The position numbers and the translations under genes are program-made. Below are positions 26,218 to 44,138 of a DNA stretch of 64,000 nucleotides, piece by piece. How positions within the stretch are numbered: the first letter of the stretch is position 1; every line of letters begins with the position of its first letter. Source of the stretch: a virus; the IMG/VR virus record IMGVR_UViG_3300045971_000409, positions 13,349 through 77,348 of that record. The stretch is one strand, 5' to 3'. The notes beneath the pieces are model-generated. The model was not told the DNA's origin and made no database searches. It was given only the letters and a program-made list of their open reading frames with translations.

Positions 26218-26730
26218 ATGAATTACTGGGTAACAGCAGACACGCATCTGGGGCACATGGCCATGATTGAAAAATGTGGCCGTCCCGACGACTTCTCCCG
26301 CAGGATTGTAAATAATACCGCGGCTATAGTACAAGAGGGGGACGTGCTCATACATCTTGGAGACTTCTGCCTGTATGCGGACGAGTTCTGGAATGAGCAA
26401 TTCTCCTCCAAGGTACTAGGCAAGCACTGGCTAGTCAGGGGGAATCATGACCGCAAGACCTCTTCGTGGTATCTCTCTCGGGGGTGGGATTGCGTAGTAG
26501 AACGCTTGGATATGTCCCTTTTTGGGGTGGATATAGCCTTCACCCACCGGCCAGTGTGGCCCCACATGCTTGAGGCGGGCCAACTGAATATCCACGGGCA
26601 TCACCACAACACTCGGCACCACCCCGAAGATGAAGTTACCTTCCAGCATCGCTGCATTAATGTTGAGGACAACAACTACGGGCCGATAAATTTACGCAGG
26701 GTGATAGAAACCTGGGGGAAGAAATGCTAG
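26218..26730 (+). CDS. Calcineurin-like metallophosphoesterase
   Basis: DTHLGH, HLGDF, GNHD, THRP, HGHHH. Confidence 0.9.
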   Translation: MNYWVTADTHLGHMAMIEKCGRPDDFSRRIVNNTAAIVQEGDVLIHLGDFCLYADEFWNEQFSSKVLGKHWLVRGNHDRKTSSWYLSRGWDCVVERLDMSLFGVDIAFTHRPVWPHMLEAGQLNIHGHHHNTRHHPEDEVTFQHRCINVEDNNYGPINLRRVIETWGKKC

Positions 26731-28991
26731 GGCAACCACTCATGACCGCTGCGGCGGCAATCTACCCTTACAAGACGGGCATGGAGAAGAAGTACACCCA
26801 TGTGTCCCGCTACGGTGACCCCTTCGTCACTTACAAGTTGTCGGGGTACGGGGGCAACGCCTCCATCCACCTGCCACGGGCCATTTGTCCTATCGGCAAA
26901 CTGGATAAGCGAGTAGTGGGGATACCGGTGTCCTTCCCCAAGGCCAACTTCATTCCCCGTAATGAGGACCAGTCTGAGGCCGTAGATTACTGCTCCCAAC
27001 TGCTACAAGGGGACGAGTCACACATCCTGGAAGCCCCCACGGGATGTCTTGTGGGTAGTACCGAGATAATTGTAAACAGGGCGGGGAAATCCGTAAGGAC
27101 TACTCTGGAAGAAGCCTACCGCCACACGCACCCACCAACACCTGTACCTGAGGGCTATTGTTTTTGTGGGTGCGGAGGAAAGACAACAGTACCCGAGAGA
27201 ACTAGAAGTCCAAAACGTCCCAAGGGAGTACCCTCTAAGTTTTTATTCAAGCATGAGGGTAGAGTTCGTCAATGGAAAAACAGCATGCAGGTACGGTCTT
27301 TTTTAGGTACCCATATAGGGCTAAACAAGGCTAATGCGGTAGTACAATCGGGGGTGAAAGAGGTATACCGCCTTACTCTAGGGGATTGTAATTTTTTGGT
27401 GGGAACTAAAGACCACCCCATAATGACTACAGAAGGTTTCGTGCCTCTGGGGGACCTAACCCCTGACCACATGGTTATGTGTGATCGAGTACGCCCCACA
27501 AAGCAGGTAACTAAGGCCCCCAAAGTACGAGACAAGTATATCAATAACATGTGGAAGCACCCGTTTGCTGTACGCATAAGGACCACAAAAGAGGCCCGAG
27601 GGTACACCCGCAGAGTAGCCCTGCACGTAGCGATATTTGAGGCCAGGACCAATAAATTGTCACTGGATGATTACATCACCGTATGCAGACTAGGTAAGAC
27701 GTCCAATCTTGATTTGGTAGACCCTTCGATTTACGTGATACACCATAAGGATGGTAACCACAGCAACAATAGTATTGATAATTTGCAAAAGATGTTGAGG
27801 GAAGACCACTACAGCCACCATGCTTCACCGCAGAATTTTGGAAATATGGTACCTTATTACGTTCCTGTGGAGTCAGTTGTGTATGTGGGTGAGGAAATGA
27901 CCTACGACATACAGTGCGAGGCCCCTCACCACAATTTTGTAGCCAATGGTATTGTAGTACACAATTCCGGCAAGACTTTCATGGGTATGGCCATTGCCGC
28001 CAACATGGGGCTCTGTACCCTAGTCGTGGTACCCAAGACTGACCTCGTGGACCAGTGGATAGTGGCAGCCAAAGGAGTGCTAGGACTCACCGATTCAGAG
28101 ATAGGCATTGTCAAAGGGGACAAGTGTTCCTATGAGGGCAAGAAGCTGGTCATTGGGTTGGTACACTCTCTGTGCAAAGAGGGTCGTTATCCAGACGCGC
28201 TCTACCGTCAATTCGGCCTCATCATCTTCGATGAAGTACACGTTATGGGAGCAGAAACCTTCTCCGAATTGGTCTGGCTATTCCCTGCCAAGTACCGACT
28301 GGGACTGTCGGCTACCCCCTACCGTAAAGATGGACGAGAGAGGCTGTTTACGGACCACATCGGGCAAGTCCTAGTGCGTATCGAGGGTAATGAATTACCC
28401 TTCCGTATTTTCCGCAAAGAGACCGGCTGGAAAGTACCCCGAGTCAAAAAGAAAAATCCCCAGACGGGAGCCTACGATATCATTCAACTGCCCCACAGTG
28501 CTGGAAAGCTCATGCACATTTTCAAGCTCATGGCAGGCAACGAGAAACGTAATTCGATCATTGGGGACTTCGTGGCCAAGGCTTATACCGCAGGGAGAAA
28601 CATTCTGGTAGTATCGGACCTCAAGGAAGATCACCTGGACCGACTCTACGCCCTCTTCGCCAAGCTCGGAGTGGCTCGTAAGGACATGGGCTACTACGTG
28701 GGCACCATGTCTAAGAAAGACTTGGAGATTTCCAAAGCCAAGCAGGTAATACTGGCTACGTACGGGATGATTAACTTCGGGACCAATATCCCGTGGCTAG
28801 ATACTCTAGTAATGGCTACCCCCAGGTCGGACGTAGTACAAATCGTGGGACGTATTCTGCGGGAATATCCTGACAAATCGGTACCCATAGTCTTCGACCC
28901 GGTAGATAGTGATAGTTCAGTAATGGCCAGTTATGCGGCCACTAGAAGAAAATGGTACCTCAGCAAAGAAACCACGATAGAAGAGCATTGA
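26724..28991 (+). CDS. Superfamily 2 helicase (UvsW/XPB-like) interrupted by an intein
   Basis: Walker A APTG|SGKT split by the intein; DEVH; GLSATPYRKDG; QIVGRILR. Confidence 0.92.
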   Translation: MLGQPLMTAAAAIYPYKTGMEKKYTHVSRYGDPFVTYKLSGYGGNASIHLPRAICPIGKLDKRVVGIPVSFPKANFIPRNEDQSEAVDYCSQLLQGDESHILEAPTGCLVGSTEIIVNRAGKSVRTTLEEAYRHTHPPTPVPEGYCFCGCGGKTTVPERTRSPKRPKGVPSKFLFKHEGRVRQWKNSMQVRSFLGTHIGLNKANAVVQSGVKEVYRLTLGDCNFLVGTKDHPIMTTEGFVPLGDLTPDHMVMCDRVRPTKQVTKAPKVRDKYINNMWKHPFAVRIRTTKEARGYTRRVALHVAIFEARTNKLSLDDYITVCRLGKTSNLDLVDPSIYVIHHKDGNHSNNSIDNLQKMLREDHYSHHASPQNFGNMVPYYVPVESVVYVGEEMTYDIQCEAPHHNFVANGIVVHNSGKTFMGMAIAANMGLCTLVVVPKTDLVDQWIVAAKGVLGLTDSEIGIVKGDKCSYEGKKLVIGLVHSLCKEGRYPDALYRQFGLIIFDEVHVMGAETFSELVWLFPAKYRLGLSATPYRKDGRERLFTDHIGQVLVRIEGNELPFRIFRKETGWKVPRVKKKNPQTGAYDIIQLPHSAGKLMHIFKLMAGNEKRNSIIGDFVAKAYTAGRNILVVSDLKEDHLDRLYALFAKLGVARKDMGYYVGTMSKKDLEISKAKQVILATYGMINFGTNIPWLDTLVMATPRSDVVQIVGRILREYPDKSVPIVFDPVDSDSSVMASYAATRRKWYLSKETTIEEH
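27045..27965 (+). mobile_element. 307-aa intein with an HNH homing endonuclease
   Basis: Starts CLVGSTEI; block B GTKDHPIMT; HHKDGNHSNNSIDNL; ends TYDIQCEAPHHNFVANGIVVHN followed by Ser+1. Confidence 0.93.
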
Positions 28992-34319: not shown

Positions 34320-34721
34320 ATGTCATTTTATGATCGACTCCGAGGCTGGCTGACTGAAACGGTTTGGAAAGGTCACACTCGCCCCCAAGAGTGGGTCATT
34401 CGCCAGGAGAAGATCAAAGAGGAGGACCGGGAAGCCCAAGAGGCTATGTCCAACTTTGAGATGTGCCCTACCGAGGCCAACAAGATAGCCCTCATCAAAG
34501 AGGTGAGTGATAAAATCATCGCTTCTCTGGCTATGATTGAATTCCTGGGGGTGCGAAGCGAGGTAGCCCTGGGTCTGGTGCTGGACAACAATATCAAGCG
34601 GGCAGAGTGCGGTGGGATGTCTGATGGCATCTACCTCCACAGTCCTGAGGATAAAATGGCCTTCAAGATTCAAATCCACGAAGAATTATCCGCGGCCTCA
34701 AGAAATACCTTGCAAGTTTAA
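34320..34721 (+). CDS. MazG-like all-alpha NTP pyrophosphohydrolase
   Basis: KIKEEDREAQEA and LIKEVSD acidic motifs, then NNIKR; start at 34320 is a best guess. Confidence 0.6.
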   Translation: MSFYDRLRGWLTETVWKGHTRPQEWVIRQEKIKEEDREAQEAMSNFEMCPTEANKIALIKEVSDKIIASLAMIEFLGVRSEVALGLVLDNNIKRAECGGMSDGIYLHSPEDKMAFKIQIHEELSAASRNTLQV

Positions 34722-34738
34722 AAGGAATATCCTATACT
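34710..34738 (+). promoter_or_regulatory. Sigma70-type promoter of the dikinase operon
   Basis: TTGCAA-N17-TATACT; SD hairpin TACACGGAGGTA at 34766-34777. Confidence 0.75.
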
Positions 34739-34785
34739 TACACTATAAACATTCACCAGCGACACTACACGGAGGTAATTGACTA

Positions 34786-36918
34786 ATGCAACCCAAGAAG
34801 CTGTACAGTACTATTACCGAAGGCGATCTTTTCGAGACCATGAATCTCGGAGAGGCCAAAGAGTTATTGGGGGGCAAGGCTTCCGGCCTGTTCGTCATGA
34901 CTCAACTCGGTATCCCTGTACCCCCCGCAATGACTATCCCAACCGTAGAATGTATCAAGTTCTTATCTGAGGCAAAGGAAGAGTCAGTACAGACCAGACT
35001 CAATTTTCTGGTAGATGAAGTCCTCACCGCGATAAAGACCGATATCGTTCCGCAGTTCGGATACACCCCGTTGTTCTCCGTTCGTTCCGGGGCTCGGGTG
35101 TCAATGCCAGGTATGATGGATACCATTCTCAACGTGGGACTGACCCCGGATACCTTGGAAGAGTGGTTTCCGCGTATCGGGGAGTGGGCCTCCTGGGATA
35201 GCTACCGTCGCCTCATTCAGATGATGGCTTCTGTGGCCCTTGAAGTTCCGATGTCTCAGTTTGAAGAGGCCCTCACGGACGCGAAAAAAGAAGAGAATGT
35301 GACTGAGGATACCGCCCTTTCAGTATCCGCCCTTCGCAAACTGGTTATCCGTTACAAGAAACTGGTCAAGGCCCATACCGGTAACGATTTCCCCACCACC
35401 CTTCGGGGGCAGTTATTGCTGGCCATCAAGTCGGTATTTCAATCGTGGGACAACCCCCGCGCCCATACGTACCGCGCATTGAACAATATCCCCTACGATT
35501 GGGGCACCGCGGTAACAGTACAAGCCATGGTCTTCGGAAATCGTAACGAGCAGTCTTGCTCTGGTGTTCTCTTCACCCGAGACCCATCCACCGGGGATGA
35601 TAATCTGGTAGGGGAGTTCCTACCTAACGCCCAGGGTGAGGACGTTGTTGCGGGAATCAGAACCCCTCTGCCCTTTGACGAACTGGAAAAATGGAACCCC
35701 AAGGTATGTTCTGACTTGAAGGCCGTCGCTGTTCGACTGGAAGATCACTACCGGGACATGCAAGACATAGAGTTCACGGTAGAGAATGGAAAGTTATATA
35801 TCCTCCAGACCCGTAATGCCAAGCGATCACCAGAAGCAGCTCTCAGGGTAGCGGTAGACATGTACCACGATGAGCTGATTACTCTGTCTGATGTATCTCG
35901 AAGGCTCACCCCGGAATTGCTCTTGGGGTCCGACCACGTCAGTATCGACCCGGCTTATACGGGAAAACCTGCGGGGGTGGGCATCCCTGGGGGTGGTACC
36001 ATCGTCAGTGGTGTCGCGGTATATACCTCTGAGGAAGCTATCGCCTGCAAAGAGCCCTGCATCCTGGTCTCCAAGGAAACTACCCCCGATGATATTGGGG
36101 GGATGCACGCCGCAGTGGGTATTCTCACCGCAACTGGGGGCTTAACTTCTCACGCGGCCGTGGTGGCTCGGGGTATGGGTAAAACCTGCGTCGTCGGTTG
36201 TGGGGACCTGGGTAAAATCGGCTTTGTGTGGAAACTGGGAGAGACCCTGCTCCCCAAGAATGAATGGCTAACCATCAACGGTCTCACGGGGGAAGTATGG
36301 AAGGGGAAGGTACCACTGGTGACCAAGGGCATCAGTCCTGCGGCCCAGCAGATAATAAGTATTCTGACCAAGGGTTATTCTCCGTTACTACTGGATGGGA
36401 CCTTCGACTCACGCTTACGACTACCTTCGGTATGTGTGACCCCCGCCATAACGAGTACCAACCTGAGACACGCGGCCCTACAGCATGATACAGTAGTTAT
36501 CAATGGTACCGCCACAGTGAAACAACTGCATGTCGAAGACGATAAAGTACTCTCTGAATTGTTTAGTATTGATATCGCGGCCAGGGCTGAATATCAGGCT
36601 ATAGGGGCAAAATTGAAGCAACTGCACACTTTAACTGCCCCAGACGTGGCAATTTATGTTACAGTACCCCCCGACTCAGGCATTAATGTCAAGGATATGC
36701 CCAAGTTTAAAACGGTGCCTTCCGCCAATACGATAACCGATATCCTGAACTCGTCGGGATTGGTTGAATTACCCGCGGACACCTGTAAGACTTTATTCGA
36801 GGACCAGACGGGATTGCAATTGTTCCTAGATATGGCTGAAATGGCTGGCCGTAAGTTTAATATCCTACCCCCGGCTCAAACGTACACCGAGTTTATCCAC
36901 CGCGTTTTGGGAGAGTAA
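34786..36918 (+). CDS. PPDK-derived dikinase: ATP-grasp and phospho-His domains plus an unrelated ~195-aa C-terminal domain
   Basis: GGKA, SVRSGARVSMPGMMDTILNVGL, NAQGEDVVAGIRTP, DMQDIEFT, GGLTSHAAVVARG (His456). No motifs of the PEP/pyruvate TIM barrel are visible. Confidence 0.9.
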   Translation: MQPKKLYSTITEGDLFETMNLGEAKELLGGKASGLFVMTQLGIPVPPAMTIPTVECIKFLSEAKEESVQTRLNFLVDEVLTAIKTDIVPQFGYTPLFSVRSGARVSMPGMMDTILNVGLTPDTLEEWFPRIGEWASWDSYRRLIQMMASVALEVPMSQFEEALTDAKKEENVTEDTALSVSALRKLVIRYKKLVKAHTGNDFPTTLRGQLLLAIKSVFQSWDNPRAHTYRALNNIPYDWGTAVTVQAMVFGNRNEQSCSGVLFTRDPSTGDDNLVGEFLPNAQGEDVVAGIRTPLPFDELEKWNPKVCSDLKAVAVRLEDHYRDMQDIEFTVENGKLYILQTRNAKRSPEAALRVAVDMYHDELITLSDVSRRLTPELLLGSDHVSIDPAYTGKPAGVGIPGGGTIVSGVAVYTSEEAIACKEPCILVSKETTPDDIGGMHAAVGILTATGGLTSHAAVVARGMGKTCVVGCGDLGKIGFVWKLGETLLPKNEWLTINGLTGEVWKGKVPLVTKGISPAAQQIISILTKGYSPLLLDGTFDSRLRLPSVCVTPAITSTNLRHAALQHDTVVINGTATVKQLHVEDDKVLSELFSIDIAARAEYQAIGAKLKQLHTLTAPDVAIYVTVPPDSGINVKDMPKFKTVPSANTITDILNSSGLVELPADTCKTLFEDQTGLQLFLDMAEMAGRKFNILPPAQTYTEFIHRVLGE

Positions 36919-36919
36919 T

Positions 36920-37234
36920 ATGGCATTGATATTGGGATTAAAAAAGGGATGTTCCATGTACATAGGTGACACACGGGTCACCCTACACACGATTATAGGC
37001 CCCGAGGCGTTCCGCATCCAGGTATTCCAGAACAAGAAGAAACCCCACTACCTGCCCATAACCGGGGAAGAGAGTACAGAAATACTCCCTTCGGTATTTG
37101 TGTCTGCGGGCAACGGGGATTTAGAGACCGCACGGGTAGTAGTTGATGCCCCCCGCAGCATCACCATCCTTCGGGAAGGCCCGTACAAAAGGCATATCAA
37201 TGGACAGACGTCAAAACTACCGCTTCACGAATAG
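36920..37234 (+). CDS. CsrA/RsmA-like RNA-binding protein, apparently two fused half-units
   Basis: LILGLKKGCSMYIGDTRVTL..IGPEAFRIQV resembles CsrA LILTRRVGETLMIGDEVTV..VKGNQVRIGV; ARVVVDAPRSITILRE resembles VRIGVNAPKEVSVHRE. Confidence 0.72.
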   Translation: MALILGLKKGCSMYIGDTRVTLHTIIGPEAFRIQVFQNKKKPHYLPITGEESTEILPSVFVSAGNGDLETARVVVDAPRSITILREGPYKRHINGQTSKLPLHE

Positions 37235-37667
37235 TGCTTTACGACAAGCCGAAGAGTTATTCGGGGTCCTCAGTTTAGAGGACTTGCAGCACAAAATGGA
37301 GTTCTCAGCCCGAGTAACCCACGCCCACGGCAACCGACGCTTTCACAACTACGTCTTCAATTTAGTAGGGGATGATTTAGTGACAGGAATCTACAGGTAT
37401 ATCGCGGGTGTGCATAAAAAGCAGGAAGGATGCCCTGTATGTGGGGGCTCCAAAAAATTGATTGTTTATGATGTGTGCGACTGTGTCTACAACCCACCAC
37501 AAGGAGAATGTAAACTATGCAAGGGAATGAAGGAAGTAAAAACGGAACATACCTGCACCTATTGCGGGTCGGATTCAAAGCCTTCAAGGATGGACTGCGC
37601 GAGGCCAAGAGAAGCTACTACGCGGGACAAGTTGAGAGCGTTCCAGCAGAGTTACAACCGGCGGTAA
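37200..37667 (+). CDS. Zn-finger protein (DnaJ-like CxxCxGxK repeats)
   Basis: CPVCGGSK, CDC, CKLCKGMK, CTYCGS. Confidence 0.65.
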   Translation: MDRRQNYRFTNSALRQAEELFGVLSLEDLQHKMEFSARVTHAHGNRRFHNYVFNLVGDDLVTGIYRYIAGVHKKQEGCPVCGGSKKLIVYDVCDCVYNPPQGECKLCKGMKEVKTEHTCTYCGSDSKPSRMDCARPREATTRDKLRAFQQSYNRR

Positions 37668-37729
37668 GCAACGCGGACCTTAAGGCTATCCAGCGCAAGG
37701 CTCTGCTACACACCCTGGTCAAAGGTACT

Positions 37730-38179
37730 ATGGATTTTCAGTTGGGTTCCATCAAAGGTACGATATACGGGGGCCCTTATCGTAGCAAGCCTTCTGATAT
37801 TATTCACGGGGTCAACATGGCCAAGGAAATCAAGGCTCACGCCACTATCTATGTGCCTACCGTGGATTTTAGTATCCCCGACTCGAATACCTTTCTGCTT
37901 GGCCTCATTCGTGGGGTGTTGGTTCTCAGGGAGCACGGGGAGATTTACGTGGGCTGTATGGGTGGTATCGGGCGCACCGGACTCTATCTCGGGGGCCTTG
38001 CCAAGATTATGTACTTGGCGGGAGAACTGGACGTAACCCCGGACGGACAACTCGCCCCCTATGTGAAGTACGTACGGGATAATTATTATGGCCACGCCAT
38101 AGAAACTATTGAACAACTGGATTTCCTGGCCCGGTTGGATGTGAGTGGTATCACCAAAGAATTACACTCCATAGCCTAG
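37730..38179 (+). CDS. Cys-based PTP/dual-specificity phosphatase 1
   Basis: CX5R loop GCMGGIGRTG; general-acid PTVDFSIP; ETIEQ. The start is uncertain because the frame is open from 37517. Confidence 0.85.
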   Translation: MDFQLGSIKGTIYGGPYRSKPSDIIHGVNMAKEIKAHATIYVPTVDFSIPDSNTFLLGLIRGVLVLREHGEIYVGCMGGIGRTGLYLGGLAKIMYLAGELDVTPDGQLAPYVKYVRDNYYGHAIETIEQLDFLARLDVSGITKELHSIA

Positions 38180-38197
38180 CTATCCTACAAGAATTTC

Positions 38198-38226
38198 TTG
38201 CAAAATCACGTGGGAATCTATATACT
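38198..38226 (+). promoter_or_regulatory. Sigma70-type promoter
   Basis: TTGCAA-N17-TATACT. Confidence 0.75.
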
Positions 38227-38270
38227 TACACTATATAAATTCCCACGTGGTACTTACAGGGAGGTAAACG

Positions 38271-39311
38271 ATGAACGTGTATCAGTACAATCAGCGGGCG
38301 TTAAAGAAGAATTTGAACTTCGGAGGAACGCCCGCCGAGCATTTAGCCACAGCCTTCAAGAACCGGCAGTACCATAACTCTATGCACCACACCAAGCAAA
38401 CCCCCGAAGTGGATGCCCTGAATTTTTATCTGGGCAACCACATTTACGCGGTACTAGCTGGTAGCCGTGACCTTTATGCCCCCCTGACCCAAGAAGAGCG
38501 TTACTTAGCCGATACGTACTTCACAATGACCCTGCCAATGGTTCATCGGGCCTTTTCGTATTTGTTCCTTATCTGCATGCGGGAAGCGCGTCACGTCAAA
38601 ATATCGGACGGGACGTGGTGGCCTAAAATGCAGGCCAAGTTTACCCCGGCAGTAGTGCAATTCATGCAGAAGATTCAGCCTATGAGTAATGGGGTACACG
38701 TAGTATCTGCTTTTGTGAGTACGCCCCCGGAACACGTAAGTATCGGGGAACTCACCGAGGCGTTCATGTTCACTTACAAGAATGGCAAGTTTTCCCCCTC
38801 GTACGGAGGGCCCAAGTGGGGAGTAATTGCCGAAGTGTTGCACAATTACACCGTGGGTATCACGTCAGCGGAGATAATGCTTGATATAGTGTGGTCTCTG
38901 GCCCACAATACCGCGTCCATCTTCAATAAGGGGGTAGTATACGAGGGTAGTGGTGGGACCTTAGGCAGCATCCTGGATATTCAGCGGGCAGGACAGATAC
39001 CACAGTTATTGAGCGAGCTACAGAAGCTAGGCCCCAACTACCTCAGCCTACCTGGGTCGTGGACCACCCAAGTACAAATGTCCCTGCTTACCGCGGCTCG
39101 CAAGCTATACCCGGAACTTGGTAGCTTGGTAAATTGGCCAGCAGTGGGTAAATCTGCTATTGGAGGAGTGGCTTGGGTCAACTACAAACAAAAGCAAGAA
39201 CAACATTACGGTGCGACTTCGGTTATTAACGCATCCAATGGAAGTAATGTCTTCTACGTGTCGAGTAAGGAGCAGTACAAAATCCTGACTCGGGCGCAAC
39301 TCGCAGCATAG
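38271..39311 (+). CDS. 346-aa helical protein of unknown function
   Basis: Own promoter and SD hairpin; motif-like REARH, SYGGPKW and LAHNTASIFNKG segments. Confidence 0.75.
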   Translation: MNVYQYNQRALKKNLNFGGTPAEHLATAFKNRQYHNSMHHTKQTPEVDALNFYLGNHIYAVLAGSRDLYAPLTQEERYLADTYFTMTLPMVHRAFSYLFLICMREARHVKISDGTWWPKMQAKFTPAVVQFMQKIQPMSNGVHVVSAFVSTPPEHVSIGELTEAFMFTYKNGKFSPSYGGPKWGVIAEVLHNYTVGITSAEIMLDIVWSLAHNTASIFNKGVVYEGSGGTLGSILDIQRAGQIPQLLSELQKLGPNYLSLPGSWTTQVQMSLLTAARKLYPELGSLVNWPAVGKSAIGGVAWVNYKQKQEQHYGATSVINASNGSNVFYVSSKEQYKILTRAQLAA

Positions 39312-39331
39312 CCCCTTACATGGAGGTAACA

Positions 39332-40165
39332 ATGGGAAAGCCCACAGTAAAATGTAATCTAAAATTGGAGTTCAAGGTGCAAGACGAAGACCGGGATGAT
39401 GTGATAGTAACTCCCTTATCGGCCACGGGAGCACCCCTTGAGTCGTATGTAACTACCGGTAAAATGGCCCCTGCCAGTCAGCGATCTAACGTAGTGCCCT
39501 TCACCCCCAAAGGGGCATCGACTAAATCGACACAGCCAAAGTGCCACCATTCGCATCCGGGGTTACCCATCCTTTGTTCTGATGGGATAACTCGTTTGGT
39601 GTATGGGGGCTCGTGCCTTGACCCTGTAATCAAAGACATGGATATATTCATTGGCTTAGATGGCGGGATGCAACACACAAAGAGACGTTATCCGTGGGAA
39701 CCGGGCCTGGAGTATCTCTTCCCTATCCCTGACATGGGCGTACCTCCCGACCTGAGCTTGTTCAAGTCCCTGATTCAATATCTGTCTGAGCAGATTATGC
39801 TGGACAAAAAGATATTTATTGGGTGTATCGGTGGGCATGGCCGAACAGGATTAGTTCTATCGGTTCTTGTGCAATCAATTGCACAGGAAGCTGATGCGGT
39901 AACTTATGTGCGGGAGCATTATTGTAAAAAGGTAGTCGAGTCCTCCGTGCAAGTTGAGTGGCTAAACAAGAACTTTGGGATAACCAAAGTATCAGCGTCT
40001 AAGACAGGCCACACCGCAGCATCCCTATCCGCAACCGTCGGCTATAAGTCCTCGCTAGAGAGCTACAGTTCGTCGGCCTATCTGCCCAGCAACAATTCAC
40101 CCAAGAAAGAAGTCCATCCCGTGTCTAGCAAGGGGTGTATATGGACGGGTAATACACTGAAATAA
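39332..40165 (+). CDS. Cys-based PTP/dual-specificity phosphatase 2
   Basis: GCIGGHGRTG; PIPDMGVP; ESSVQ; start moved to ATG 39332 after GGAGGT. Confidence 0.88.
   Translation: MGKPTVKCNLKLEFKVQDEDRDDVIVTPLSATGAPLESYVTTGKMAPASQRSNVVPFTPKGASTKSTQPKCHHSHPGLPILCSDGITRLVYGGSCLDPVIKDMDIFIGLDGGMQHTKRRYPWEPGLEYLFPIPDMGVPPDLSLFKSLIQYLSEQIMLDKKIFIGCIGGHGRTGLVLSVLVQSIAQEADAVTYVREHYCKKVVESSVQVEWLNKNFGITKVSASKTGHTAASLSATVGYKSSLESYSSSAYLPSNNSPKKEVHPVSSKGCIWTGNTLK
39868..39885. promoter_or_regulatory. 18-bp palindrome copy 8, inside phosphatase 2
   Basis: TGTGCAATCAATTGCACA. Confidence 0.85.
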
Positions 40166-40166
40166 C

Positions 40167-40195
40167 TTTACTTTCACCCCGGAATACTCTATAAT
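40167..40195 (+). promoter_or_regulatory. Sigma70-type promoter
   Basis: TTTACT-N17-TATAAT. Confidence 0.65.
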
Positions 40196-40231
40196 CTTCT
40201 TAATACATACCACTACAAGGAGGTAATCATT

Positions 40232-41014
40232 ATGTCAGTAATTTATGGGGGTGCTTTGGATATCGGTAAAGTATTCACTGCCTTCCACTTGGAGGGGGAA
40301 TACGAGGCCCTCAAGAATAATGGGGTACAGGTTAAGAGCGGGGTAAACAAGCTCTTGTTTATTAAGTACGGGTCCACCCTCAAGACCGTTACCCTACCGG
40401 GGGGCAGCATTGATCAGGCTATGAAAGGGGAACTTATGCCTCTTTCGTTTAGCCATCTCAAAGGGCAGTTGGAAACGGCTATCGAACAGGCTCTTGCTAT
40501 GGCCAATACGACACCGGGGTCTACGCCATCAACCCCTAAGAAGAAATGGACTTCTTCTTACGGTGCGACCCCAAACCCCAAGCCCAATTTTACCCCGCCC
40601 CCAGGGGCTTCGGGACCCGAACCAAGCCAGTTCGCTACGCCTACGACGCTTTCGTTTGGCCATCCTTCTAAGTATGGGGAACCGGACTGTACTCTGTACA
40701 GCGCACTGGCCCTCTACCAGAAGGTACCGGGCACCACCGCAGGCAGTCTCTACACGGTAGTAGCCATGGGACCGGGTATCAATATGGCGGCCAGGGTACA
40801 AGGGCAGAAGGTATCTATTCGGGTACAGGGGTCGAATTTCCAGCAGTACAAGCCCATGTTCCTGGCTAATGATTTCACGGTGCATGAGTCTCACGCTTCC
40901 ATCCACATTGACTGTGAAACTTCGGTTCGAGTTGGGCGGGTAATAGGGGCGGTAATTATGGGGCTAGGAATCTTTCAGTCACCGTTACCTGACCTCAAAA
41001 AACTGGTAGCATAG
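40232..41014 (+). CDS. Two-domain hypothetical protein with a Pro-rich linker
   Basis: Promoter and SD hairpin upstream. Confidence 0.7.
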   Translation: MSVIYGGALDIGKVFTAFHLEGEYEALKNNGVQVKSGVNKLLFIKYGSTLKTVTLPGGSIDQAMKGELMPLSFSHLKGQLETAIEQALAMANTTPGSTPSTPKKKWTSSYGATPNPKPNFTPPPGASGPEPSQFATPTTLSFGHPSKYGEPDCTLYSALALYQKVPGTTAGSLYTVVAMGPGINMAARVQGQKVSIRVQGSNFQQYKPMFLANDFTVHESHASIHIDCETSVRVGRVIGAVIMGLGIFQSPLPDLKKLVA

Positions 41015-41022
41015 GGGGTATT

Positions 41023-41262
41023 ATGAGTGAACTTATCGACTTCGCCAATGCCGTGAAAGACATGAATCTAGGGGATGTGTTCAGCGTGGGCACCCCCTTT
41101 CCTCCGTTGAGCGCGGAGCCTTTAGAGTGGTCCTGCATTGCCGTGAAAGAGAGGGACGGACTGCCGGTAAAAACCTTTGTCCTACATTGGTTAGGGGTTC
41201 TAATCGACTCACGGGAATTAATCGTCAATACGGATGGTAGCGTACGCTGCAAGGGAGTATAA
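41023..41262 (+). CDS. Hypothetical protein
   Basis: Compact operon spacing; RBS AGGGGG. Confidence 0.55.
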   Translation: MSELIDFANAVKDMNLGDVFSVGTPFPPLSAEPLEWSCIAVKERDGLPVKTFVLHWLGVLIDSRELIVNTDGSVRCKGV

Positions 41263-41265
41263 ACC

Positions 41266-41679
41266 ATGCTGAATCCTACTACGTTTTACAAGATGGCGGA
41301 CCTTCTGGGAATGACTCTGAGCCTGGAGAAAGGTAGAGTCTACGGGTCTGTGGGTGTGGCCGTAAAAGATACCCCTTACAAACTGAACATGACCGTGATA
41401 GATTACGCCAACCTGAAAGACGAGGACACCAAAGCCAGTGGGGTACATTGTCTGCTCATCAACATAGGCAGTAAGGGCTACTTCCTTTTGACGGATAATA
41501 GTCGCAGCAACTCTCTGGTATTTGTGAACTCGGACAAACTGCCCATCAGTCTCGCCACCCTAAAGCTCGCCAAGTGTGCCTCTACTCCCCGCGAGTTATT
41601 CGCCTATTTGAAGCCGGGCATTGTAGCCGCCTGGAAATTCAATCGGGGCACTGAGGTATGGGACCCCCTGCCATGCTGA
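41266..41679 (+). CDS. Hypothetical protein
   Basis: RBS GGGAG; overlaps the polymerase start. Confidence 0.6.
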   Translation: MLNPTTFYKMADLLGMTLSLEKGRVYGSVGVAVKDTPYKLNMTVIDYANLKDEDTKASGVHCLLINIGSKGYFLLTDNSRSNSLVFVNSDKLPISLATLKLAKCASTPRELFAYLKPGIVAAWKFNRGTEVWDPLPC

Positions 41680-44138
41680 TTATCTGGACTACTGCTAAAA
41701 CAGGAAGAGTGCGGGAGGCCATAGGTTCTGTGATAAAACAGCACCATGGTCTGCCGCACAAGATTATCTCGGACTTCACCAAGCTACCCGACTCTGAACC
41801 GGGGGATATCATCATAGCGTGTGGGACCAAGGCGGTAGAAGTGCTATCGTCTTTCCAGATATGCCCCAAGAACAGAACCGTCACTTCCATGCGGGGCAAG
41901 CCCCTAACCAATAATGGGCGGACCTTCCTCTGCACCTTTGATGCGAATATCCTGGATAAGGAGCCCGCCTTGGTGGACTCTATCAACTGGGATGCACAAC
42001 TAGCCATAAGACTTCTCAAAACCGGACAGATGGAACCCATCCTGGGCAAGTATACCTGGGTGGATGATTTTCTTGACGTGATCCTTTACGTTGAGCAGCA
42101 GTATGCCAAGACTCGGAAACCAGTACCAGTGGCCCTTGACCTTGAGACTATGGGCCTGGATTACATGAACAGTTCCAAGAGGATAGTTTCGATAGCTTTT
42201 ACGGCGAGACCCAAAACGTCCCAACTGTTGTACCTGGATTTATCCGGCAAGCCCTCCCCCGAAGTCCTCCGACAGATCGAGTGGCTCATAACCAGTCCGC
42301 TGGTAACGCTTCGCGGGGCCAACCTTAAATACGATAGTCTCTGGATACAGTCCAAATGGGGCATACGCATAGAGAATTTCTGGTTTGACACCACCCTGGT
42401 CGGCTCCCTGCTCAACGAGAATCGTAGCAACAGTCTGAATAACCACACCAAGATATATGTTACTGAGCTGGGGGGCTATGATGATGCCTTCAGCTTGAAA
42501 TATGATAAAGCTCACATGGAACTGGTGCCCAAGGACGACCTGCTCACCTACGCTGGGGGGGATACTGATGCTTGTTTGCGGGTTTCTGAGGCGTTACGGG
42601 AAGAGCTAGTGGAAGACCCCAAGCTGGCCAACTTCTACCAGAAGTGTCTTCACCCTGCGGCACGTGCTTTTGAGGATTTGGAGCTGGAAGGGGTACTGGC
42701 CGACTATGACTACTACATGCACCCGGAAATTGTGTACAAGAAGAATGAAAATGGTCATATCAAATACGACAAGAACGGGCTGCCGGACATTGAAAAGGGA
42801 TTGGATAAACTGCTGGACAAGACCATCCAAGACCTTACGGATACCTTGCTCGGACTCATACCGGCCAAGATACGCTACAAATACGCGGACAAGTTAAAGC
42901 TCGGTACCAAAGGGGTATTGCAAGACTACTTCTTCTCCCCGCTCGGGTTCAACCTCAAGCCCCTGATACTAACGGACAAAACCAAACAGCCTTCCACAGC
43001 GATGAAGCATCTTCTCCAATTCGATGAAGTACCAGAAGTCAAGAACTTCGTCACCATCCTCAAGCGATTGAATTCAGCCACCAAAACCAAGACCACATAC
43101 ATTACGGGCTTCTTCAAGTTCCTGCGGGAAGACGGCAGATTCCATGGCTCATACATTCTGCATAAGGGTGGCGTTGAAGGCGGAGACAACGATCAGGAAG
43201 CAGGGACCGATACTGGACGTTCCAGTTGCAAGGACCCGGCCCTGCAAACGGTACCCAAGCATACCATCTGGGCCAAGAAACTGCGGCGAGGATTCATAGC
43301 CCCTGAGGACTGTATTATCGTCAACATCGACTACTCCCAGGGGGAGTTGAAGATTGCGGCGTGTCTCGCCAACGAGACCACCATGATTCAGGCGTACCTC
43401 AATGGCATCGACCTGCATCTGGTTACCGGGGGACGGGCTTCGGGCTCCACACTGGAAGACCTGCTGGCCATGAAGAAATACGCGGATGAGAATCCCGACA
43501 GTGATGAGGCTGCTCTCTTCGCGGAGATACGCCAAAAGGGCAAGGCTGGTAACTTCGGCTTCATCTATGGGATGGGACCGGAGGGGTTCATGTCCTACGC
43601 CAAGTATAATTACGGGGTGATATTCTCCCTGCAAGAGGCGGTAGATTTTCGTAATGGCTATTTCGCCACCTACCCTCGACTCCTGGAGTGGCATAAAGAG
43701 TGCAAGGCTATTGCCAAGCGGGATGGGCAAATACGTTCTCCCCTGGGCCGACTACGCCATGTACCTCACATCTACTCTCCCGACCAGGGGGTACGGTCTC
43801 TGGCGGAAAGACAGTCGGTAAACTCCCCGGTACAGGGGACCTTGTCGGACATGGCTTCTATGGCTCTAGGCATATTCAAAGAGCAATACGGTAGGCCCGC
43901 CAATTGTCGCCCCTTCCTCATGACCCATGACGCCAATACCTTTTACATGCACAAGAGTGAAGCAGGCGTCTGGATTCCTCGGGTCGTAGATATCATGGAA
44001 AATCTGCCGTTGGAGGAGAATTTCGGTTGGCGGGCGCAGCTTAAATTCACGGTAGATGTGGAAACCGGATTGAACATGGCGGAGCTTAAAAAATACCCTC
44101 ACAAATACAATCCACCCCCACAAGGAATTATACTGTGA
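41673..44138 (+). CDS. polA: Family A DNA polymerase with 3'-5' exonuclease and an N-terminal UDG-like remnant
   Basis: Exonuclease motifs DLET, NLKYD, YAGGD; TGRSSCKDPALQTVP; motif A DYSQGEL; motif B RQKGKAGNFGFIYG; motif C THDA. Confidence 0.95.
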   Translation: MLIIWTTAKTGRVREAIGSVIKQHHGLPHKIISDFTKLPDSEPGDIIIACGTKAVEVLSSFQICPKNRTVTSMRGKPLTNNGRTFLCTFDANILDKEPALVDSINWDAQLAIRLLKTGQMEPILGKYTWVDDFLDVILYVEQQYAKTRKPVPVALDLETMGLDYMNSSKRIVSIAFTARPKTSQLLYLDLSGKPSPEVLRQIEWLITSPLVTLRGANLKYDSLWIQSKWGIRIENFWFDTTLVGSLLNENRSNSLNNHTKIYVTELGGYDDAFSLKYDKAHMELVPKDDLLTYAGGDTDACLRVSEALREELVEDPKLANFYQKCLHPAARAFEDLELEGVLADYDYYMHPEIVYKKNENGHIKYDKNGLPDIEKGLDKLLDKTIQDLTDTLLGLIPAKIRYKYADKLKLGTKGVLQDYFFSPLGFNLKPLILTDKTKQPSTAMKHLLQFDEVPEVKNFVTILKRLNSATKTKTTYITGFFKFLREDGRFHGSYILHKGGVEGGDNDQEAGTDTGRSSCKDPALQTVPKHTIWAKKLRRGFIAPEDCIIVNIDYSQGELKIAACLANETTMIQAYLNGIDLHLVTGGRASGSTLEDLLAMKKYADENPDSDEAALFAEIRQKGKAGNFGFIYGMGPEGFMSYAKYNYGVIFSLQEAVDFRNGYFATYPRLLEWHKECKAIAKRDGQIRSPLGRLRHVPHIYSPDQGVRSLAERQSVNSPVQGTLSDMASMALGIFKEQYGRPANCRPFLMTHDANTFYMHKSEAGVWIPRVVDIMENLPLEENFGWRAQLKFTVDVETGLNMAELKKYPHKYNPPPQGIIL

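What the first reader, a model, noticed from the sequence alone, without database searches (positions are those of the whole stretch)
34320..41014. Repurposed PPDK dikinase clustered with two CX5R phosphatases: a candidate phage writer/eraser phosphorylation system
Seen: the 710-aa protein keeps the PPDK ATP-grasp domain and the GGLTSHAAVVARG phosphocarrier (His456). After about aa 515 it has an unrelated ~195-aa domain instead of the pyruvate/PEP TIM barrel, with no RTEHMF, NPMLG or GTNDLTQ motifs. Next come the CsrA-like gene, a Zn-finger gene, phosphatase 1 (CMGGIGR), a 346-aa unknown and phosphatase 2 (CIGGHGR). A MazG-like gene lies upstream. Established: dikinases change acceptor by swapping the third domain, as in rifampin phosphotransferase and glucan water dikinase; the latter works with CX5R glucan phosphatases. 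Inference: this is not a central-carbon auxiliary metabolic gene. It is more likely a kinase for a new acceptor (protein, nucleotide, nucleic acid end, glycan or defence signal), reversed or processed by the phosphatases.
Basis: partly seen in the sequence, partly recalled or inferred. Interest (0 to 1): 0.88.

Follow-up and report, generated by a model that had tools for sequence, protein, structure and literature searches.

The report
Phage dikinase-phosphatase module, not PPDK
A gene that phage papers call the glycolytic enzyme pyruvate phosphate dikinase is a cut-down, ATP-driven phosphate carrier that always travels with a cysteine phosphatase, a new-fold enzyme-like protein and another unknown protein beside the phage DNA polymerase; its target is unknown.

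Summary
The core observation holds. The 710-aa protein (34786-36918) keeps the PPDK ATP-grasp and phospho-histidine domains. His456 is invariant in 45 homologues. The PEP/pyruvate barrel motifs are absent in 0 of 50 short forms and present in 25 of 25 full-length forms.

The cluster is conserved in about 50 viral contigs, 40 phage isolates and 10 bacterial assemblies. Its order is dikinase, CsrA-like gene, phosphatase 1, 346-aa protein, phosphatase 2, 260-aa protein, two small proteins, PolA.

Three corrections:
- The C-terminal ~200 aa has no conserved residue. It aligns structurally with the PPDK barrel region, so it looks like a decayed barrel, not a new acceptor domain.
- Phosphatase 2 is dispensable, because SIO-2-type Vibrio phages lack it.
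- The "MazG-like" neighbour matched no family.

The 346-aa protein folds confidently (pLDDT 88.5), matches no solved fold (best Z 4.5) and has about 24 invariant residues, many of them polar.

Best reading: a split dikinase that supplies phosphate to an acceptor held by partner proteins, probably in phage nucleotide or DNA metabolism. This is inferred. The only experimental hint is that the DNA of phage DLP3 resists 15 restriction enzymes.

This scan found the same module before in at least 13 other genomes, with similar verdicts.

The parts
34786..36918 (+). PPDK-like dikinase, 710 aa
   Evidence: AF2 model has mean pLDDT 86.1. PHROG 18609 'kinase', E 6e-151.
34786..35925 (+). Nucleotide-binding ATP-grasp domain (about aa 1-380)
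   Evidence: Pfam PPDK_N. Many invariant residues, including K31, R100, E277, Q283, E285, D327, E329, Q341 and R343. Aligns to the rifampin phosphotransferase ATP domain 5hv6 at Z 14.4.
35947..36315 (+). Phospho-histidine swivel domain (aa 388-510). The catalytic His456 codon is at 36151-36153.
   Evidence: Pfam PEP-utilizers. PDB 2fm4 aligns at Z 17.4, rmsd 1.9, over residues 388-510. T454 and H456 are invariant.
36316..36915 (+). C-terminal alpha/beta domain (aa 511-710) with no conserved residues; possibly a decayed PEP/pyruvate barrel
   Evidence: No invariant column after W505. Variable length. phmmer against 1.8 billion representatives found only itself. hhalign to the true barrel gives probability 0.4%. 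pLDDT is 52-87. Structural alignments to PPDK span to residue 710.
36920..37234 (+). CsrA-like 104-aa protein
   Evidence: Pfam CsrA E 9e-4, below the cut-off. NCBIfam CsrA E 0.005. Homologues found in 33 of 83 loci by tblastn. A77, P78, I83 and R85 are conserved.
37200..37667 (+). Cys-rich zinc-finger protein; start uncertain; overlaps the long form of phosphatase 1
   Evidence: Translation shows four CxxC-type pairs. Weak DnaJ_CXXCXGXG match, E 0.38. Homologues found in 8 loci.
37517..38179 (+). Phosphatase 1 (CX5R; Cys147 codon at 37955-37957). The start may instead be 37730, because homologues are about 165-175 aa.
   Evidence: The family profile hits archaeal PTPs and DUSP23 in the PDB at E 3e-10.
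38271..39311 (+). 346-aa all-helical protein of unknown fold, with about 24 invariant residues, many of them polar
   Evidence: AF2 pLDDT 88.5, pTM 0.85. No Foldseek PDB match at E <= 0.001. Best Z 4.5 against 48,161 chains. Invariant residues include R104, E105, R107, H108, G179, G180, W183, E201, D205, H212, N213, N219, K220, D236 and Q238. PHROG 20946, function unknown.
39332..40165 (+). Phosphatase 2 (CX5R, Cys169 in ORF numbering from 39320), with conserved C75, H79, C99 and C202
   Evidence: The family profile hits Thermococcus PTP 5z59 and the ShufPTP entry at E 2e-11. Met5 is invariant and ATG 39320 lies inside the leader motif.
40232..41014 (+). 260-aa protein: N-terminal domain, Pro/Thr-rich linker, conserved C-terminal ~100 aa
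   Evidence: The family is found in about 40 loci by iterated HMM and in SIO-2. A158, Y174 and R197 are invariant. No PDB or Pfam relative.
41023..41262 (+). 79-aa protein, conserved in position and by profile
   Evidence: 39 rows in the iterated HMM, query included. No family match.
41266..41679 (+). 137-aa protein directly before PolA, conserved in position and by profile
   Evidence: 39 rows in the iterated HMM, query included. Only D12 and W132 are conserved.
41658..44138 (+). Family A DNA polymerase with a 3'-5' exonuclease domain
   Evidence: Pfam DNA_pol_A 4e-55 and DNA_pol_A_exo1 3e-13. The 40-46% identity clade of this polymerase coincides with the phages that carry the module.
34710..34777 (+). 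Promoter-like site plus shared leader TACANGGAGGTA before the dikinase. Matching elements lie at 38198-38266 (before the 346-aa gene), 40167-40225 (before the 260-aa gene) and 39317-39328 (before phosphatase 2).
   Evidence: The motif occurs 18 times, all on the + strand, against 1.13 expected.

Best explanation
The block is a split phosphotransfer system built around a truncated PPDK.

Shown:
- The dikinase keeps everything needed for the first PPDK half-reactions: ATP binding, and pyrophosphorylation then phosphorylation of His456 on the swivel domain.
- It has lost the pyruvate/PEP site.

Inferred:
- The remaining C-terminal domain is a decayed barrel kept for folding or dimerisation, not for catalysis.
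- The phospho-His domain delivers phosphate to an acceptor held by a partner protein encoded next to it. The best candidate is the invariant-residue-rich, new-fold 346-aa protein. The 260-aa protein is a second core partner.
- The cysteine phosphatases (one in every member examined, two in most) then remove a phosphate from an intermediate or product. This would be a processing step in a pathway, not simple reversal.
- The block and its own clade of family A DNA polymerase always occur together, and one member phage has DNA that resists all restriction enzymes tried. The most likely field of action is therefore phage nucleotide or DNA metabolism, for example activating a hydroxyl by phosphorylation on a nucleotide or on DNA.
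For: - The dikinase core is intact and under strong constraint: about 80 invariant columns, including T454 and H456. E is 1e-127 to PPDK residues 14-524.
- The barrel is lost in 0 of 50 short forms against 25 of 25 full-length forms.
- No invariant residue lies after W505.
- Structural alignments to PPDK and Enzyme I extend through residue 710.
- Co-occurrence is complete. Every short dikinase with enough flanking DNA has phosphatase 1, the 346-aa protein and PolA downstream in the same order. No full-length PPDK does.
- All 10 bacterial-assembly hits to the 346-aa family carry the dikinase.
- All 40 phage records with the 346-aa protein belong to the same host groups as the short dikinase.
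- The 346-aa protein has a confident model, no known fold and about 24 invariant residues, many of them polar.
- The phosphatases keep Cys, Arg, Asp and the Q-loop.
- The PolA clade coincides with the module.
- DLP3 DNA resists 15 restriction enzymes (PMC7326821).
- Four module genes share one promoter/leader class.
Against: - No biochemical data exist for any member.
- No partner docking was computed.
- The link to DNA rests on gene adjacency within a single phage lineage, where synteny alone could explain it, and on one phage that also carries a glycosyltransferase.
- No thymidylate-synthase-type hydroxymethylase is present in five genomes of the lineage, so a 5-hydroxymethylpyrimidine route of the usual kind is unlikely.
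- The nearest solved relatives of the phosphatases are protein phosphatases.
- The barrel-remnant reading rests on a model region with pLDDT 52-87 and has no sequence support.
Confidence: 0.4

Rival explanations
1. Protein phosphorylation switch. The phospho-His domain phosphorylates a phage or host protein, as Enzyme I phosphorylates HPr. The cysteine phosphatases erase the mark.
For: - The central domain is homologous to the Enzyme I phospho-His domain.
- The phosphatase profiles are closest to small protein phosphatases: Thermococcus PTP, SsoPTP, DUSP23 and receptor PTPs.
- The 260-aa core protein has conserved Ser, Tyr and His residues that could be acceptors.
Against: - No HPr-like or receiver protein was found.
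- The only phospho-peptide-binding lead (FHA in the 137-aa protein) failed: 1 of 35 members matched.
- The Enzyme I helical HPr-binding subdomain was not detected. This was an incidental observation, not a targeted test.
- The cysteine phosphatase fold also acts on RNA ends, lipids, glucans and inositol pyrophosphates (general knowledge).
- One phosphatase is dispensable.
Confidence: 0.2
2. Small-molecule pathway unrelated to DNA. The module phosphorylates a metabolite or a host defence signal, or makes a phosphorylated product. The 346-aa protein would be the small-molecule-binding enzyme.
For: - Dikinases are known to act on small molecules: rifampin phosphotransferase (5hv1) and NCBIfam hits to the PigC/RedH ligases.
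- The 346-aa protein looks like an enzyme with a charged pocket.
Against: - No PADLOC match for any module protein.
- No transporter or other metabolic gene is in the block.
- The strict pairing with PolA is left unexplained.
Confidence: 0.2
3. No acceptor at all. The enzyme only cycles ATP, AMP, Pi and PPi through its two retained half-reactions to shift the adenylate or pyrophosphate balance during replication.
For: - Only the domains for the first two partial reactions are conserved.
- DNA synthesis next door releases PPi (general knowledge).
Against: - It does not explain the invariant partnership with the phosphatase, the 346-aa protein and the 260-aa protein.
- A stalled phospho-His enzyme is not catalytic without an acceptor.
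Confidence: 0.08
4. Ordinary auxiliary metabolic PPDK that boosts host glycolysis or gluconeogenesis, as phage genome papers state.
For: Annotations and discussion in PMC9229204, PMC10141217 and PMC10671443. The N-terminal two thirds have strong similarity to PPDK.
Against: - The PEP/pyruvate domain and its motifs are absent in all 50 short forms.
- The score is below the equivalog cut-offs of TIGR01828 and PRK05878.
- Genuine full-length PPDKs on viral contigs form a separate clade (SH-aLRT 100) and lack the module.
Confidence: 0.02

Closest known systems
Pyruvate, phosphate dikinase (EC 2.7.9.1; C. symbiosum 1KBL/1DIK, T. brucei 2X0S)
   Same: The ATP-grasp domain and the phospho-His swivel domain with the T-S-H motif are shared. 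E is 1e-127 over residues 23-523. The whole-model structural match is Z 34.6, rmsd 8.6, 678 residues aligned.
   Different: - No PEP/pyruvate site.
- The C-terminal part is about 200 aa instead of about 340, with no conserved residue.
- It fails the TIGR01828 cut-off.
Short PPDK-like proteins of the PRK05878 type (NF004531, 534-position model)
   Same: Both are truncated dikinases that lack the full barrel. The match is 391 bits over residues 23-513.
   Different: The score is below the family cut-off of 456 bits. The phage proteins carry an extra variable C-terminal domain and a fixed set of partner genes. The gene neighbourhoods of the cellular short forms were not examined here.
Dikinases with a different acceptor: rifampin phosphotransferase (5HV1), PEP synthase, glucan water dikinase
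   Same: They share the ATP-grasp plus swivelling phospho-His logic. Rifampin phosphotransferase aligns at Z 17.9, rmsd 3.6, 360 residues.
   Different: Those enzymes hold the acceptor in a conserved domain of the same chain. Here no such domain is conserved, and the 346-aa protein does not resemble any solved chain (best Z 4.5).
Small cysteine phosphatases: Thermococcus kodakarensis PTP (5Z59), SsoPTP (2I6I), DUSP23 (4ERC)
   Same: The CX5R(T) loop, the Asp general acid in a D-F/M-x-x-P loop and the E-T/S-x-x-Q loop are shared. Profile E-values are 2e-11 and 3e-10.
   Different: The scores are below the Pfam cut-offs. Phosphatase 2 has an added N-terminal part with conserved Cys and His. The substrates are unknown.
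Thymidine hypermodification pathway (5-hydroxymethyl-dU DNA kinase plus aGPT-Pplase; recalled from the literature, not retrieved here)
   Same: The logic is similar: a kinase, an all-helical transferase-like protein and further enzymes sit beside replication genes. One member phage has restriction-resistant DNA.
   Different: - The kinase is of a different family.
- No thymidylate-synthase-type hydroxymethylase is present in 5 genomes.
- The one aGPT-Pplase model listed by the viral fold search ranks 42nd with TM 0.14.

Membership tests
Pyruvate, phosphate dikinase (EC 2.7.9.1) | ATP-grasp nucleotide-binding domain | tested here: met
   Pfam PPDK_N 3.5e-46. PDB alignment.
Pyruvate, phosphate dikinase (EC 2.7.9.1) | Phospho-histidine swivel domain with the catalytic Thr-Ser/Cys-His | tested here: met
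   Pfam PEP-utilizers 1.3e-22. T454 and H456 are invariant. 50 of 50 short forms keep GGxT[SC]HAA.
Pyruvate, phosphate dikinase (EC 2.7.9.1) | PEP/pyruvate TIM barrel with NPM[LM]G and GTNDL motifs | tested here: not met
   No PEP-utilizers_C. Motifs are in 0 of 50 short forms and 25 of 25 full-length forms. hhalign probability 0.4%.
Pyruvate, phosphate dikinase (EC 2.7.9.1) | Score above the curated equivalog cut-off (TIGR01828) | tested here: not met
   532 bits against a cut-off of 843; only profile positions 13-521 of 865 are matched.
Short PPDK-like proteins (NF004531 / PRK05878) | Score above the curated cut-off | tested here: not met
   391 bits against a cut-off of 456.
Acceptor-swapped dikinases (rifampin phosphotransferase, glucan water dikinase type) | A conserved acceptor-binding domain in the same polypeptide | tested here: not met
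   No invariant column after W505 in 45 homologues; segments are missing in many members.
Cysteine-based PTP/DSP superfamily (both phosphatases) | CX5R(S/T) phosphate-binding loop | tested here: met
   C147...R153-T154 and C169...R175-T176 are invariant.
Cysteine-based PTP/DSP superfamily (both phosphatases) | General-acid Asp loop and Gln-containing loop for hydrolysis | tested here: met
   D117 and D138 are invariant and align with the PDFTAP loop of 5z59. E-T/S-x-x-Q is invariant.
Cysteine-based PTP/DSP superfamily (both phosphatases) | Score above the Pfam gathering cut-off for a named PTP family | tested here: not met
   17-20 bits against cut-offs of 21-27. Family profiles nevertheless reach E 2e-11 and 3e-10 against solved PTPs.
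Thymidine hypermodification systems (5-HMUDK / aGPT-Pplase) | A thymidylate-synthase-type pyrimidine hydroxymethylase in the genome | tested here: not met
   PF00303 is absent from 5 genomes of the lineage, two of them at least 99% complete. The control search found it in 10 of 14 reference genomes.
Thymidine hypermodification systems (5-HMUDK / aGPT-Pplase) | An aGPT-Pplase-type transferase | tested here: inconclusive
   No Pfam match for 41 members of the 346-aa family. One aGPT-Pplase1 model in BFVD ranks 42nd with TM 0.14. No direct profile comparison was possible.
CsrA (the 104-aa protein) | Match to the CsrA profile above the cut-off | tested here: inconclusive
   E 9e-4, 19.6 bits against a cut-off of 27; only profile positions 26-49 are matched. 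A-P...I-x-R is conserved in the family.

The most novel reading that the evidence does not exclude
The module makes an undescribed, phosphate-activated modification of phage nucleotides or DNA. The truncated dikinase would be the phosphate donor. The 346-aa protein would be a transferase of a new fold, and the cysteine phosphatases would be processing enzymes. The module would work with its own co-inherited polymerase. This would explain the complete restriction resistance of DLP3 DNA.
Probability: 0.3. Interest if true: 0.9.

Novelty: new variant of a known kind. Interest (0 to 1): 0.66.

Why it matters
Dozens of published phage genomes, including aquaculture and Stenotrophomonas therapy candidates, list this gene as a glycolytic auxiliary metabolic gene. 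That label is wrong.

The gene belongs to a fixed multi-gene block that is a core trait of a widespread lineage of 80-105 kb siphoviruses. These infect Vibrio, Stenotrophomonas, Rhizobium, Rhodobacter and other bacteria.

The block contains a confidently folded protein with no known fold and an enzyme-like set of invariant residues. It also shows a dikinase that appears to hand its phosphate to a separate protein.

Finding the acceptor could reveal a new nucleotide or DNA modification route, or a new phage phospho-signalling device. It would also give function to at least four orphan protein families.

Tried and rejected
- Word-indexed search with the C-terminal domain alone found only itself.
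- A full phmmer scan of 1.8 billion representatives found only itself and one spurious hit.
- hhalign of the C-terminal family against the true PPDK barrel gave probability 0.4%.
- The 346-aa protein had no Pfam match across 41 members and no PDB sequence match.
- It also had no Foldseek PDB match, and the best VIA-align Z was 4.5.
- The ESM Atlas model of the 346-aa protein was too poor to use.
- A profile search of 5.8 billion proteins returned only 14 close family clusters and no distant relatives.
- The 260-aa protein had no PDB or Pfam relative. The Atlas gave only a weak DHHA1-like hint, not relied on.
- The FHA lead in the 137-aa protein (E 0.046) was rejected: 1 of 35 family members matched and the signature residues are not conserved.
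- PADLOC found nothing for ten proteins.
- No thymidylate-synthase family member was found in five lineage genomes.
- Literature searches for a described function of the module, or for a link between this dikinase and DNA modification, found nothing. They returned only genome papers that call it an auxiliary metabolic gene.
- Sigma-70-type promoter and terminator counts were not above chance.
- In the tree run, protein P0006 was wrongly added as an outgroup. It is not a homologue (branch length 10) and should be ignored.

Full report
**What the window is.** The window lies in a 77,348-base IMG/VR virus record estimated to be 62% complete. It encodes a phage replication set and a virion set. 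These include a DnaB-like helicase, a primase-like protein, an intein-bearing helicase, RecA, a resolvase, an exonuclease, family A DNA polymerase, portal and lysozyme. It has no close DNA relative among 50,697 phage records.

**The observation.**
- ORF 34786-36918 encodes 710 aa.
- Residues 23-523 align to Clostridium symbiosum PPDK residues 14-524 at E 1e-127.
- Pfam finds the nucleotide-binding domain and the mobile phospho-histidine domain, but not the PEP/pyruvate domain.
- GGLTSHAAVVARG begins at residue 451, with His at 456.
- I extracted the homologous ORFs from 80 viral contigs and two phage records. They fall into two classes. Proteins of 636-749 aa lack NPM[LM]G and GTNDL (0 of 50). 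Proteins of 875-930 aa have both (25 of 25). All 75 keep the T-S/C-H motif.
- The protein scores 532 bits on the PPDK equivalog model (cut-off 843) and 391 bits on the short PPDK-like model PRK05878 (cut-off 456).
- The truncation is therefore real, recurrent and not an assembly artefact.

**The other genes of the finding.**
- Both CX5R phosphatases are present with the quoted motifs.
- The CsrA-like gene matches weakly.
- The zinc-finger gene shows DnaJ-type CxxC pairs.
- The 'MazG-like' upstream gene could not be verified in any of four libraries.
- The ATG at 39320 lies inside a conserved leader motif, and Met5 is the invariant start in the family. Phosphatase 2 therefore probably begins at 39332.

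**The C-terminal domain.**
- In an alignment of 45 short forms, about 80 columns are invariant. All lie at or before W505.
- After that point the sequences vary from about 120 to 215 aa, and many lack whole segments.
- Neither the word-indexed search nor a full phmmer scan of 1.8 billion representatives finds any relative of this part.
- A profile comparison with the true barrel gives probability 0.4%.
- In the AF2 model (mean pLDDT 86.1; 52-87 in this part) the region is alternating strand and helix.
- Structural alignments to PPDK run over model residues 1-710. The best is 2x0s, with Z 34.6, rmsd 8.6 and 678 residues aligned. Enzyme I aligns over residues 394-710.
- I read this as a shrunken, decayed barrel, not an unrelated new domain. 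This rests on a model of middling confidence, and I could not fold the part alone.
- Either way, a domain with no conserved residue is a poor candidate for the acceptor site.

**Conservation of the cluster.**
- tblastn of the window's proteins against the loci shows the same order wherever enough downstream DNA is present. The order is dikinase, often a CsrA-like gene, phosphatase 1, the 346-aa protein, phosphatase 2, the 260-aa protein, PolA, portal.
- Iterated HMMs show that the 260-aa, 79-aa and 137-aa proteins are also conserved families. Each search returned 39-40 rows, the query included.
- No full-length PPDK locus has any of these genes.
- The same block is annotated in Rhizobium phage TM16, Stenotrophomonas phage DLP3 and Rhodobacter phage RcZahn.
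- All ten hits to the 346-aa family in 185,579 species genomes carry the dikinase in the same order. They come from Burkholderiaceae, Azospirillum, Helicobacteraceae, Acidobacteriaceae and others. One is a decayed prophage remnant.
- Among phage isolates the 346-aa protein occurs in 40 records, from the same Vibrio, Stenotrophomonas, Rhizobium and Rhodobacter phages that carry the short dikinase.
- The polymerase clade at 40-46% identity is exactly this set. The next polymerases, at 29%, belong to phages without the block, and there PolA sits among helicase and primase genes.
- In a quick maximum-likelihood tree the 21 full-length viral-contig PPDKs form one clade (SH-aLRT 100) apart from all 47 short forms. 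This is consistent with a single origin, but the sample of full-length enzymes is narrow and the tree is unrooted.

**A reduced form.** SIO-2-type Vibrio phages have dikinase, a 160-aa protein, one phosphatase, the 346-aa protein, the 260-aa protein and PolA. My family HMMs find no phosphatase 2, no 79-aa or 137-aa protein and no CsrA-like gene there. The core is therefore the dikinase, one cysteine phosphatase, the 346-aa protein, the 260-aa protein and PolA. The second phosphatase is an addition.

**The partners.**
- Both phosphatase families keep the Cys and Arg of the P-loop, an Asp in a D-F/M-x-x-P loop and an E-T/S-x-x-Q loop.
- Their profiles are nearest to small archaeal PTPs and DUSP23, at E 2e-11 and 3e-10. 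They look like active hydrolases.
- Phosphatase 2 adds conserved C75, H79, C99 and C202, possibly a metal site.
- The 346-aa protein folds with pLDDT 88.5 and pTM 0.85 as an all-helical protein.
- It has no Foldseek match in the PDB and a best Z of 4.5 against 48,161 representative chains. Its only matches among viral models are its own relatives.
- Its invariant residues include R104, E105, R107, H108, G179, G180, W183, E201, D205, H212, N213, N219, K220, D236 and Q238. This is the pattern of a charged active site or phosphate-binding pocket.
- The 260-aa protein has no relative in the PDB or Pfam.

**How it most likely works.**
- Shown: the enzyme can bind ATP and carry phosphate on His456 by homology, it cannot bind pyruvate in the PPDK manner, and it never occurs without its partners.
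- Inferred: the phospho-His domain delivers phosphate to an acceptor bound by a partner, most plausibly the 346-aa protein. The phosphatase then removes a phosphate from an intermediate or product.
- In solved PPDK the barrel domains form the dimer interface (general knowledge), so the C-terminal remnant may be kept for dimerisation.
- The field of action is inferred from two things. One is the strict pairing with a dedicated PolA clade. The other is the report that DLP3 DNA is cut by none of 15 restriction enzymes and is presumed modified (PMC7326821).
- Against a conventional hydroxymethyl-pyrimidine route, no thymidylate-synthase homologue exists in five genomes of the lineage.
- The protein-switch, small-molecule and adenylate-cycling readings remain open and are listed as rivals.

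**Comparison with the literature and novelty.**
- Every paper I could retrieve treats the gene as a glycolytic auxiliary metabolic gene, or simply lists it. None describes the block as a system.
- PHROG labels both phosphatases 'thymidylate synthase'. GenBank records carry that label too.
- The dikinase belongs to a well-known superfamily that is known to change acceptors. I therefore class this as a new variant of a known kind, with a new-fold partner and an unknown target.
- This scan has already reported the same module in at least 13 other genomes, with follow-up verdicts close to mine. My additions for this window are listed below.
  - The clean motif dichotomy (0 of 50 against 25 of 25).
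  - The finding that the 260-, 79- and 137-aa proteins are conserved families.
  - The reduced SIO-2 form, which defines the core.
  - The rejected FHA lead.
  - The shared promoter/leader class in front of four module genes.

Noticed in passing
window, 18 sites on the + strand, e.g. 16230, 23192, 32487, 34766, 38255, 39317, 40214, 46538, 59765: The leader motif TACANGGAGGTA occurs 18 times, all on the + strand, against 1.13 expected by chance. Several copies follow a promoter-like TTGCAA-N17-TATACT. It overlaps the Shine-Dalgarno sequence and resembles, from memory, the CsrA binding consensus RUACARGGAUGU. The phage also encodes a CsrA-like protein, so phage-wide translational control is possible.
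   Followed up: partly
window 39320-39332: The first ATG of the phosphatase 2 ORF lies inside the leader motif. Met5 (39332) is the invariant start in 35 homologues, so the gene is probably 277 aa, not 281.
   Followed up: yes
window 37143-37730: The zinc-finger ORF and the long form of phosphatase 1 overlap by about 150 nt in different frames. Both candidate starts of phosphatase 1 (37517, with AAGGAG upstream, and 37730) are possible. Homologues are about 165-175 aa, which favours the later start.
   Followed up: partly
L096 (Vibrio phage SIO-2, NC_016567.1 29500-43500): The module is reduced here, with one phosphatase only and no CsrA-like, 79-aa or 137-aa gene. The record labels the phosphatase 'thymidylate synthase' and the dikinase 'kinase'.
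   Followed up: yes
L090 (Thalassobaculaceae MAG chromosome OZ001190.1): This looks like a decayed prophage remnant. Only residues 387-517 of the dikinase are detectable. The CsrA-like gene, phosphatase 1 and the 346-aa gene are present, but phosphatase 2, PolA and portal are not.
   Followed up: no
window 26724-28991: A helicase (ResIII/DEAD) is interrupted by an intein that carries an HNH nuclease.
   Followed up: no
L001 (Rhizobium phage TM16, record 71447-75131): A sugar-nucleotide epimerase/dehydratase, an ArnB-type aminotransferase and a glycosyltransferase lie a few kb upstream of the terminase and the module. They might modify DNA or the host surface.
   Followed up: no
L085 (RcZahn), L001 (TM16): In these phages the module plus PolA sits between the large terminase and the portal gene. 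In this window it instead follows RecA, resolvase and exonuclease genes, so its position relative to the packaging genes is not fixed.
   Followed up: no
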